Below are positions 49,593 to 50,204 of a stretch of DNA of 64,000 bases, in pieces. Source of the DNA: Escherichia phage Ec_Makalu_002. The DNA is taken from sequence record MN709127.1; one strand, given 5' to 3'. The translations under genes and the position numbers were made by a program. Numbering within the stretch: position 1 is the stretch's first letter; the number at the start of each line of letters is the position of its first letter. A model generated the notes under the pieces. It saw only the letters and a program-made list of their open reading frames with translations. It was not told the DNA's origin and made no database searches.

Positions 49593-49795
49593 TTACATGT
49601 AGGGCAATGCGGTTCTTTAATATAATACCCGTCTGTCTTTGGAACACTAACAGGAGCGGTTTTTATATTGTATTCAGTGAAACAACGAAAACAAGTTACG
49701 TTTTCTACAGACTGACGTTTAACCCAATCGCCGGAATATAGATCATTTTTATTTGCCATATTCAACCACCACAATATTGATATCTGGAGTAGCAA
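49565..49795 (-). CDS. hypothetical Cys-containing protein
   Basis: 76-aa ORF; true start possibly internal (MANKND...). Confidence 0.4.
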   Translation of the reverse strand: MLLQISILWWLNMANKNDLYSGDWVKRQSVENVTCFRCFTEYNIKTAPVSVPKTDGYYIKEPHCPTCKCRLYWSHL

Positions 49796-50204
49796 TATTA
49801 ATGATTTCTTCTACGCATTCCCACTCAAGGCCACCGATACCGCAACCGATTTTAGGGATATAGAAAGGCTGTATAGCACCTTCAAAAACATCATTGAGAG
49901 ACTCAAATCCTTTCAGGATAGCACTATATTCAGCATTTGGACCCGGTCGGAATTGGGTATAGAGATTCACCCCACACCAGTTATAACCATTAACTTGATG
50001 AGTCCAGACACTAAACCCACCCAGCTTTTCTACCTTACCGCGAGAAGTTTGCTTGTCAATCTCTAACGCTTGCGGGAACTCTTTTGCGATATCCGCAGCA
50101 ATACCAGCGCCCATAGTATGAAAACAATTACAACCATGAATTAAATGACCGTTTCCTTGTTTAAACAGGGCGATGAGATCGCCCTTTACAGTATCAATAA
50201 TCAT
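49749..50204 (-). CDS. macro-domain protein (ADP-ribose binding/hydrolase-like)
   Basis: HGCNCFHTMGAGIAADIA and FYIPKIGCGIGGL fit the macro-domain N.x6GAG..A and P.I..G.GG signatures. Confidence 0.5.
   Translation of the reverse strand: MIIDTVKGDLIALFKQGNGHLIHGCNCFHTMGAGIAADIAKEFPQALEIDKQTSRGKVEKLGGFSVWTHQVNGYNWCGVNLYTQFRPGPNAEYSAILKGFESLNDVFEGAIQPFYIPKIGCGIGGLEWECVEEIINIATPDINIVVVEYGK

What the first reader, a model, noticed from the sequence alone, without database searches (positions are those of the whole stretch)
49749..50204. Macro-domain protein in the tk-regB region
The motifs HGCNCFHTMGAGIAADIA and IPKIGCGIGGL fit macro-domain signatures for ADP-ribose binding or hydrolysis. The same genome encodes an ADP-ribosyltransferase (9106..9609). 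A phage macro domain could reverse host ADP-ribosylation-based immunity or tune the phage's own ART activity.
Basis: partly seen in the sequence, partly recalled or inferred. Interest (0 to 1): 0.5.

Follow-up and report, generated by a model that had tools for sequence, protein, structure and literature searches.

The report
Phage macrodomain Tk.4/AdfM, anti-DarT2 eraser

Summary
The ORF at 49749..50204 (minus strand, 151 aa) is real, and both quoted motifs are in it. It is a macro domain:
- Pfam Macro scores 29.5 bits against a cut-off of 22.
- The AlphaFold2 model has pLDDT 96.8.

The window is a Krischvirus (RB49-like) coliphage. An identical protein is already deposited as "macro domain protein" (Ec_Makalu_003), and RB49 names the gene tk.4.

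The protein is 45% identical over its full length to T4 Tk.4 and sits in the same slot, between vs and tk. T4 tk.4 was named adfM in 2025: it was the only T4 gene required on DarTG2 hosts, and a clean knockout made T4 sensitive.

The most likely mechanism is hydrolysis of ADP-ribose from thymidines in phage ssDNA modified by DarT2. This is inferred, not shown.

One refinement: the catalytic lysine of DarG, TARG1 and PhiKZ AdfM is a glutamine here (Q84, in 87 of 88 relatives). SCO6735 has the same glutamine (Q85), needs it for activity, and still cleaves thymidine-ADPr.

The protein is not a DarG: it has no DarT-binding domain, no adjacent darT, and scores 51 bits against a cut-off of 250.

The parts
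49749..50204 (-). tk.4 / adfM orthologue: 151-aa stand-alone macro domain protein (stop codon included)
50213..50216 (-). Shine-Dalgarno GAGG, 8 nt upstream of the ATG at 50204..50202
   Evidence: Read directly from the sequence. A ribosome-binding site is annotated at the same place in MN882349.
50085..50138 (-). Loop-1 ADP-ribose-binding motif HGCNCFHTMGAGIAADIA (residues 23-40), including N26 (nt 50127..50129)
   Evidence: N26 aligns with PhiKZ AdfM N23, and with SCO6735 N27 in the profile alignment. N26, G34 and A36 are invariant in 88 of 88 relatives.
49953..49955 (-). Codon CAA for Q84, at the position of the catalytic lysine of TARG1 (K84) and PhiKZ AdfM (K78), and of SCO6735 Q85
   Evidence: phmmer and profile alignments, MAFFT alignment. 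Q in 87 of 88 family members. The role of SCO6735 Q85 comes from PMC9411070.
49827..49859 (-). Loop-2 diphosphate-binding motif IPKIGCGIGGL (residues 116-126). G124 occupies the position of TARG1 D125.
   Evidence: P117, I119, G120 and G122 are invariant and G125 is present in 86 of 88 relatives. Aligned with PRIGCGLAGG of BT1257 and SCO6735, and with PRIGCGLDRL of TARG1.

Best explanation
The gene is the Krischvirus orthologue of T4 tk.4 (adfM). It encodes a stand-alone macrodomain of the ALC1-like (TARG1/DarG/SCO6735/BT1257) class, made from the minus-strand gene block regB-vs.1-vs-tk.4-...-tk.

Proposed mechanism: when the phage infects an E. coli carrying a DarTG2 toxin-antitoxin defence, DarT2 ADP-ribosylates thymidines in single-stranded phage DNA and blocks replication. 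The phage macrodomain binds the ADP-ribose through its two glycine-rich loops and hydrolyses the N-glycosidic thymidine-ADP-ribose bond. It acts as an orphan antitoxin that needs no contact with the toxin.

Catalysis is most likely of the SCO6735 type. Asn26 would position Gln84, which would position the distal ribose for water-mediated cleavage. It is unlikely to follow the lysine-based chemistry of DarG and TARG1, because the lysine position holds a conserved glutamine.

Shown here: the gene, the fold, the class, the orthology and synteny, and the residue pattern. Shown elsewhere for homologues: T4 Tk.4 is needed against DarTG2 (genetics only), and SCO6735 with Gln85 cleaves thymidine-ADPr DNA. 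Inferred: that this protein has the same activity and the same role.
For: Fold and class:
- Pfam Macro above threshold.
- AF2 pLDDT 96.8.
- The Foldseek top hits are TARG1, Poa1p, DarG, BT1257 and SCO6735.
- The family profile against PDB sequences gives BT1257 2.7e-15, SCO6735 1.8e-14, TARG1 3.9e-14 and DarG 2.9e-13.
- The only PADLOC hit is DarG, E 5e-15. The only NCBIfam hit is antitoxin_DarG, over its macro part only.

Orthology to T4 Tk.4:
- 45% identity over 152 columns, E 2e-45.
- Same gene order tk...tk.4-vs-vs.1-regB in the closest relative of the window, in the window itself and in T4.
- RB49 names the gene tk.4.

Function of the orthologue: tk.4 was the single significant hit on DarTG2 hosts, and the knockout is sensitive (10.1101/2025.11.20.689424).

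Chemistry:
- Q84 aligns with SCO6735 Q85, TARG1 K84 and PhiKZ K78.
- Q is present in 87 of 88 relatives and N26 in 88 of 88.
- SCO6735 Q85A and N27S lose activity, yet the wild-type enzyme removes DarT-made thymidine-ADPr and rescues cells from DarT (PMC9411070).
- An independent phage macrodomain, PhiKZ AdfM, removes DarT2 marks from DNA in vitro (PMC13309987).
Against: - No experiment exists on this protein or on any Krischvirus. A literature search for Krischvirus plus DarTG found nothing.
- Identity to T4 Tk.4 is only 45%.
- The T4 evidence is genetic and comes from a preprint. Its authors only suppose the enzymatic mechanism.
- Lys34 and Lys89, which SCO6735 uses to hold DNA, are not conserved here (A33; R86/G88 region), so DNA binding must be achieved differently.
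- ALC1-like macrodomains can also act on protein Glu/Asp-ADPr, O-acetyl-ADP-ribose, ADP-ribose-1''-phosphate and uracil-ADPr RNA. Substrate range cannot be read from the sequence.
Confidence: 0.72

Rival explanations
1. The macrodomain reverses or tunes ADP-ribosylation (or RNAylation) written by the phage's own transferases, such as ModB at 9106..9609. It would act as an internal eraser that times host take-over.
For: The same genome does encode a ModB-like ART. SCO6735 and TARG1 also de-ADP-ribosylate proteins. Macro domains and ARTs are both enriched in myoviruses (PMC9503650).
Against: - On established knowledge, T4-type Alt/ModA/ModB are R-S-E arginine-specific transferases. Arginine-ADPr is cleaved by ARH-family enzymes, not by known macrodomains.
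- The two genes lie about 40 kb apart, with no linkage.
- T4 tk.4 insertions were depleted specifically with DarTG2, so no general infection role was detected.
- The family also occurs in phages outside Straboviridae (Vequintavirus, Felixounavirus, Vi01-like and Pseudomonas phages). tblastn with ModB found far fewer records, 299 against 2732.
Confidence: 0.06
2. It processes small ADP-ribose derivatives rather than DNA adducts. It could be an ADP-ribose-1''-phosphate phosphatase or O-acetyl-ADP-ribose deacetylase, as the legacy 'phosphatase/A1pp/Poa1p-like' annotations imply. Alternatively it could degrade an ADP-ribose-derived immune signal or NADase product.
For: - T4 Tk.4 is annotated 'phosphatase; contains A1pp phosphatase motif'.
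- PHROG 335 is named phosphatase.
- TARG1/OARD1 deacetylates O-acetyl-ADP-ribose, according to the molecule name.
- Iyer et al. argue that phage macro domains may prefer soluble ADPr derivatives.
Against: - These annotations are transfers from domain names, not from assays.
- The only phenotype known for an orthologue is DarTG2-specific.
- The nearest sequence relatives with known biochemistry (SCO6735, DarG, TARG1) all cleave thymidine-ADPr DNA.
- No tRNA-splicing-type 2'-phosphotransferase context is seen around the gene.
Confidence: 0.1
3. It is a broader nucleic-acid ADP-ribose eraser. Its relevant targets would include RNA (uracil-ADPr or other base adducts) or marks from defence transferases other than DarT2, or it would neutralise DarT2 partly by direct binding rather than by catalysis.
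For: TARG1-like macrodomains, including bacterial homologues, efficiently reverse uracil-ADPr on RNA (PMC13036486). Catalytically dead SCO6735 Q85A still inhibits DarT in vitro by interaction. The family is very widespread, with 2732 phage records.
Against: No data exist for any Tk.4-family member. The protein lacks the C-terminal DarT-binding domain of DarG. The T4 screen reported tk.4 only for DarTG2 among the systems tested.
Confidence: 0.1

Closest known systems
T4 Tk.4 = AdfM (anti-DarT factor Macrodomain; NP_049723.1; bioRxiv 10.1101/2025.11.20.689424)
   Same: Full-length homologue (45% identity, E 2e-45) of the same size (151 vs 155 aa). Same genomic slot directly downstream of vs in the tk-regB block. 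Same loop motifs HGCNCFHTMG(A/S)G and NLYTQF...PG, including Q at the catalytic-lysine position.
   Different: 55% of residues differ, and the loop-2 sequence is GCGIGGLEW against GAGIGKGNW. The window protein is closer to Vequintavirus macro proteins (67-70%) than to T4. Only the T4 protein has a demonstrated phenotype.
Streptomyces coelicolor SCO6735 (PDB 5E3B) and Bacteroides BT1257 (PDB 2FG1/2AFC): Gln-type ALC1-like macrodomains
   Different: Only 22-25% identity. The longer mobile loop of SCO6735 and its DNA-contacting Lys34 and Lys89 are absent (window A33; short FRPGPN loop). SCO6735 is a cellular, DNA-damage-inducible protein rather than a phage counter-defence gene.
DarG / DarG2 antitoxin macrodomain (T. 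aquaticus 5M31/5M3E, M. tuberculosis 5M3I, T. africanus 7OMU)
   Different: No C-terminal DarT-binding domain: the match covers model positions 2-139 of 338, at 51 bits against a cut-off of 250. No adjacent darT. The catalytic Lys is replaced by Gln84.
Chimallivirus AdfM (PhiKZ gp104; PMC13309987)
   Same: A phage-encoded stand-alone macrodomain that counters DarTG2 by removing ADP-ribose from DNA. It carries the same name and has the same conserved Asn (N23/N26).
   Different: Only 26% identity, E 4e-7. It keeps the DarG-type Lys (K78) where the window protein has Q84, and it is imported into the phage nucleus. The low identity and different active-site residue suggest a separate lineage of the ALC1-like class, though no tree was built.
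Human TARG1/OARD1 (PDB 4J5R/4J5S)
   Same: Top Foldseek hit (E 4e-11, 28-30% identity, TMq 0.76). Similar size and loops. It cleaves thymidine-ADPr DNA.
   Different: The TARG1 catalytic dyad Lys84/Asp125 corresponds to Q84/G124 here.

Membership tests
Macro domain superfamily (Pfam PF01661) | Match to the family HMM above the curated gathering score | tested here: met
   29.5 bits against a cut-off of 22, E 7.6e-7, profile positions 1-118 of 118.
Macro domain superfamily (Pfam PF01661) | Three-layer alpha/beta/alpha macro fold | tested here: met
Macro domain superfamily (Pfam PF01661) | Two glycine-rich ADP-ribose-binding loops (N-x6-G-x-G-[IV]-A and P-x-[IL]-G-x-G-x-x-G) | tested here: met
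   N26...G32-A-G34-I-A36 and P117-K-I-G120-C-G122-I-G-G125. These positions are invariant or nearly so in 88 relatives.
Macro domain superfamily (Pfam PF01661) | Binds ADP-ribose | not testable with these tools
   Needs ITC, a thermal-shift assay or a co-crystal.
ALC1-like macrodomain class (TARG1/DarG/SCO6735/BT1257/Poa1p) | Closest solved relatives by sequence and by fold belong to this class, clearly separated from MacroD, viral and PARG types | tested here: met
T4 Tk.4 / AdfM orthologous group | Full-length homology to T4 Tk.4 | tested here: met
   45% identity, 65% positives, E 2e-45 over residues 1-149.
T4 Tk.4 / AdfM orthologous group | Conserved position immediately downstream of vs in the regB-vs.1-vs-tk.4-...-tk block, on the same strand | tested here: met
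   Annotation of Ec_Makalu_003 (99% identical to the window) compared with T4. The window neighbours were checked: Vs PHROG 1256 at 3.9e-33, RegB Pfam at 1.5e-48, Vs.1 with an SLT domain.
T4 Tk.4 / AdfM orthologous group | Protects the phage from DarTG2 | not testable with these tools
   Shown only for T4. No paper holds both Krischvirus and DarTG.
DarG antitoxin (NCBIfam NF048014 equivalog; PADLOC DarG) | Whole-protein score at or above the equivalog cut-off | tested here: not met
   51.2 bits against a cut-off of 250.
DarG antitoxin (NCBIfam NF048014 equivalog; PADLOC DarG) | C-terminal DarT-binding domain after the macrodomain | tested here: not met
   The protein is 151 aa. The match covers only model positions 2-139 of 338 and 3-141 of 329.
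DarG antitoxin (NCBIfam NF048014 equivalog; PADLOC DarG) | Encoded next to a darT toxin gene | tested here: not met
   The neighbours are vs and a small zinc-binding protein.
DarG antitoxin (NCBIfam NF048014 equivalog; PADLOC DarG) | Catalytic lysine (T. aquaticus K80) | tested here: not met
   Q84 aligns with the lysine of PTKK in DarG 5m3i, K78 of PhiKZ AdfM and K84 of TARG1. Q is present in 87 of 88 relatives.
SCO6735-type (Gln) thymidine-ADPr hydrolases | Gln at the catalytic-lysine position, held by a conserved Asn (SCO6735 Q85/N27) | tested here: met
   Q84 and N26 align with Q85 and N27 in the profile alignment. The residue numbering was checked by counting K34, Q85, G87 and K89 against PMC9411070.
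SCO6735-type (Gln) thymidine-ADPr hydrolases | Extended mobile loop with DNA-binding Lys89/Lys94, and Lys34 | tested here: not met
   The window has A33 at the Lys34 position (A in 78 of 88 relatives). It also has a loop about 5 residues shorter after Q84, with a gap in the consensus against SCO6735 and BT1257.
Poa1p-like ADP-ribose-1''-phosphate phosphatase (source of the legacy 'phosphatase' annotation) | Structural similarity to Poa1p | tested here: met
Poa1p-like ADP-ribose-1''-phosphate phosphatase (source of the legacy 'phosphatase' annotation) | Appr-1''-p phosphatase activity | not testable with these tools
   Needs an enzyme assay. No tested member of the Tk.4 family was found in the literature searches.

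The most novel reading that the evidence does not exclude
The Tk.4/AdfM family, present in thousands of phage genomes, may be a lysine-independent, glutamine-type DNA ADP-ribosylglycohydrolase lineage. It would have been recruited independently of the Lys-type chimallivirus AdfM. Like SCO6735 and TARG1 it might erase more than DarT2 marks (uracil-ADPr on RNA, acidic-residue protein ADPr) or also block DarT2 by binding. That would make it a broad-spectrum counter to several ADP-ribosylating defences rather than a single-system antidote.
Probability: 0.2. Interest if true: 0.45.

Novelty: already known. Interest (0 to 1): 0.2.

Why it matters
The finding adds little. The identical protein is already deposited as a macro domain protein, and the T4 orthologue has a published counter-defence role.

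Its value is confirmatory. It shows that AdfM-type protection is conserved, in the same place, in the Krischvirus branch of T4-like phages, which are used as therapeutic and typing phages. It therefore predicts that these phages resist DarTG2-carrying E. coli.

The one point the cited papers did not make is that the Tk.4/AdfM family carries Gln, not Lys, at the catalytic position. This ties it mechanistically to SCO6735 rather than to DarG. It matters for designing catalytic-dead controls: use Q84A or N26A, not a lysine mutant.

Tried and rejected
- Two literature calls failed because a search term was too short and were repeated.
- A search for Krischvirus plus DarTG found no paper.
- I tested whether vs and the macro gene travel together as a module. 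The gene upstream of the 70%-identical Vequintavirus macro gene (AlexBoehm bas56_0088) has no similarity to Vs, so only the macro gene is shared.
- I looked for a DarT neighbour next to a bacterial homologue (P0098, Pelagimonas chromosome). There is none; the gene stands alone among housekeeping genes. This gives no clue to a toxin-linked origin.
- The MAFFT alignment of eight sequences misplaced SCO6735 and BT1257 around the Gln loop. For those two I relied on the HMM profile alignment, where NlYtQ pairs with NMIGQ, and I checked the residue numbering by hand against the paper.
- At first I took PDB 5m3i for the T. aquaticus DarG. The fold-search tables identify it as M. tuberculosis DarG, so I do not quote residue numbers for that chain.
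- Membership in DarG proper was considered and rejected.
- The 'terminator' annotated inside the CDS in MN882349 was not reproduced by the consensus scan.
- I did not run the capped search of 1.84 billion protein representatives or the metagenome and genome scans. The question was already settled without them.

Full report
**Observation**

The window holds a single 151-aa ATG ORF at 49749..50204 on the minus strand.
- Its translation contains both quoted motifs: HGCNCFHTMGAGIAADIA (residues 23-40) and IPKIGCGIGGL (residues 116-126).
- A GAGG ribosome-binding site lies 8 nt upstream of the start codon.
- The ORF starts 16 nt after the stop of the upstream gene and overlaps the next gene by 11 nt, as expected for a member of a phage gene block.

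**What genome this is**

A 2.3-kb stretch around the ORF is 99.3% and 99.1% identical to Escherichia phages Ec_Makalu_001 and Ec_Makalu_003. It is 96.7% identical to RB49, genus Krischvirus, family Straboviridae.
- The Ec_Makalu_003 record annotates a 100% identical protein (QHJ73040.1) as 'macro domain protein'.
- RB49 calls the gene tk.4 ('phosphatase' in RefSeq).
- The neighbours are tk (48468..49064), three small ORFs, tk.4, vs (50220..50579), vs.1 (50587..51177) and regB (about 51263..51685). Two of the small ORFs are phage zinc-binding domains, PF23895 and PF23903. vs matches PHROG 1256 at E 3.9e-33, vs.1 has an SLT domain, and regB matches PF10715 at E 1.5e-48.
- T4 has the same order: tk, tk.1-tk.3, tk.4, vs, vs.1, regB.

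**Is it a macro domain?**

Yes, by every test available.
- Pfam Macro: 29.5 bits against a cut-off of 22, covering the whole 118-position model.
- PHROG 335: E 2e-62.
- phmmer against PDB sequences finds only macro domains. The best are M. tuberculosis DarG (5m3i, E 7e-8), BT1257 and TARG1.
- An AlphaFold2 model built on 88 homologues has mean pLDDT 96.8 and pTM 0.91.
- Foldseek against the PDB gives TARG1 (E 4e-11, TMq 0.76), then Poa1p, DarG (TMq 0.78), BT1257 and SCO6735, all at probability 1.00.

The protein therefore belongs to the ALC1-like class of macrodomains.

**What it most likely does**

The protein is 45% identical to T4 Tk.4 over its whole length (E 2e-45) and sits in the same slot.

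A 2025 preprint (10.1101/2025.11.20.689424) screened a T4 transposon library on E. coli expressing DarTG2.
- tk.4 was the single significant hit.
- A clean knockout became sensitive to DarTG2.
- The authors renamed the gene adfM (anti-DarT factor Macrodomain).
- They proposed, without biochemistry, that it removes ADP-ribose from DNA.

Independently, a chimallivirus macrodomain (PhiKZ gp104, also named AdfM) was shown to remove DarT2-made ADP-ribose from an oligonucleotide. It is also required on DarTG2 hosts (PMC13309987).

DarT2 modifies thymidines in ssDNA, and the DarG2 macrodomain reverses this. TARG1, DarG and SCO6735 all hydrolyse thymidine-ADPr.

By orthology, fold class and precedent, the best explanation is that the window gene encodes an orphan antitoxin-like DNA ADP-ribosylglycohydrolase that detoxifies DarT2-modified phage DNA. 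The activity and the phenotype are inferred for this protein, not shown.

**A mechanistic refinement**

The catalytic lysine of TARG1 (K84) and PhiKZ AdfM (K78), and the aligned lysine in the PTKK motif of DarG, correspond to Gln84 in the window protein.
- I confirmed the PhiKZ numbering (N23, K78) by counting the translated gp104 against the paper.
- I confirmed the SCO6735 numbering (K34, Q85, G87, K89) by counting the aligned chain against PMC9411070.
- Among 88 family members, Gln is present in 87 and the partner Asn26 in all 88. T4 Tk.4 has the same NLYTQF motif.
- TARG1 Asp125 corresponds to Gly124.

This is the active-site pattern of SCO6735. There, Gln85 sits at the lysine position, Q85A and N27S abolish activity, and the enzyme nevertheless removes DarT-made thymidine-ADPr efficiently and rescues cells.

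The Tk.4/AdfM family is therefore a Gln-type enzyme. PhiKZ AdfM, which is 26% identical, is Lys-type. The two 'AdfM' proteins belong to different branches of the ALC1-like class.

Two SCO6735 features are absent here: the long mobile loop, and Lys34/Lys89 (A33 and a shorter loop). How this protein grips DNA is therefore open.

**Why it is not a DarG**

PADLOC and NCBIfam each return DarG as the only hit. The match covers only the macro part (positions 2-139 of 338) and scores 51 bits against an equivalog cut-off of 250. There is no DarT-binding domain, no adjacent darT and no catalytic lysine. The protein works like the DarG macrodomain but is not a member of the DarG family.

**Rival explanations**

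1. Eraser for the phage's own ARTs.
   - The ModB-like ART at 9106..9609 is real.
   - T4-type ARTs are arginine-specific (established knowledge), and arginine-ADPr is not a known macrodomain substrate.
   - The genes are unlinked.
   - The T4 phenotype was specific to DarTG2.
   - The macro family is far more widespread than ModB: 2732 against 299 phage records.
2. Small-molecule ADPr processing.
   - This is the source of the legacy 'phosphatase/A1pp/Poa1p-like' labels.
   - No assay on any family member supports it.
3. A wider nucleic-acid substrate range, or inhibition of DarT2 by binding. This is possible, given the behaviour of TARG1-like enzymes and of SCO6735 Q85A, but it is untested.

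**Distribution**

- tblastn finds the family in 2732 of 50,697 phage records. These include Tevenvirinae, Krischvirus, Vequintavirus, Felixounavirus, Vi01-like phages, and Pseudomonas, Vibrio, Klebsiella and Acinetobacter phages. This agrees with the survey figure that 41% of myoviruses carry a macro domain (PMC9503650).
- The Krischvirus allele is closer to Vequintavirus proteins (67-70%) than to T-even Tk.4 (44-50%). The Vequintavirus neighbour is unrelated to vs. This suggests lateral exchange of the macro gene alone.
- A bacterial homologue (Pelagimonas) is a stand-alone chromosomal gene without a darT neighbour.

**Verdict**

The feature is already known: it is annotated in public records, and its T4 orthologue has been functionally named. 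What remains of interest is the Gln-for-Lys active site shared with SCO6735, and the absence of any direct biochemistry for the Tk.4 family.

Interest: 0.2.

Noticed in passing
window 9106..9609 (-): A 167-aa ModB-like ADP-ribosyltransferase. It matches PHROG 832 at E 1e-20 and is annotated modB in RB49, but it has no Pfam hit and is only about 28-31% identical to T-even ModA/ModB. It lies between srd and gene 56, as in T4.
   Followed up: partly
window 49749..50204 vs locus L007 3001..3459 (Escherichia phage AlexBoehm, Vequintavirus): The Krischvirus macro protein is 67-70% identical to Vequintavirus macro proteins (Bas56, Bas59) but only about 45% identical to T4 Tk.4. The Vequintavirus upstream gene is unrelated to vs (no BLASTP alignment). 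This suggests lateral transfer of the macro gene alone between unrelated E. coli myoviruses.
   Followed up: partly
window 50542..50570 (-): A strong sigma-70-like promoter match (TTGACA, 17 nt spacer, TATGAT, with an extended -10 TG; 11 of 12 positions) lies just inside the 5' end of vs. It could give a transcript that starts within vs and reads into tk.4. The region as a whole has only slightly more promoter-like sites than shuffled sequence (16 against 10.9).
   Followed up: no
window 50168..50184 (-): A perfect 7-bp hairpin (GGGCGAT-CTC-ATCGCCC) lies inside codons 7-13 of tk.4. The equivalent site is annotated as a 'terminator' in MN882349, but it lacks a T-run and was not called by the terminator scan.
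   Followed up: partly
window 49350..49568 (-) and 49565..49759 (-): The two small ORFs just downstream of tk.4 (72 and 64 aa), which lie where T4 has tk.1-tk.3, are phage zinc-binding domain proteins (PF23895, E 7.5e-34; PF23903, E 2.5e-23) of unknown function.
   Followed up: no
window 50220..50579 (-) and 50587..51177 (-): The Vs homologue is only 26% identical to T4 Vs and begins with a hydrophobic stretch that looks like a signal peptide. Vs.1 carries a lytic transglycosylase (SLT) domain. The HIDEN-SEQ preprint reports that T4 vs is the gene most strongly depleted in minimal medium, which is hard to square with a purely cytoplasmic 'valyl-tRNA synthetase modifier'.
   Followed up: no
locus L004 6001..6459 (Pelagimonas phthalicica chromosome): A bacterial member of the Tk.4-like family (43% identity) is a stand-alone chromosomal gene among housekeeping genes. 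It has no darT or other ART gene nearby.
   Followed up: partly
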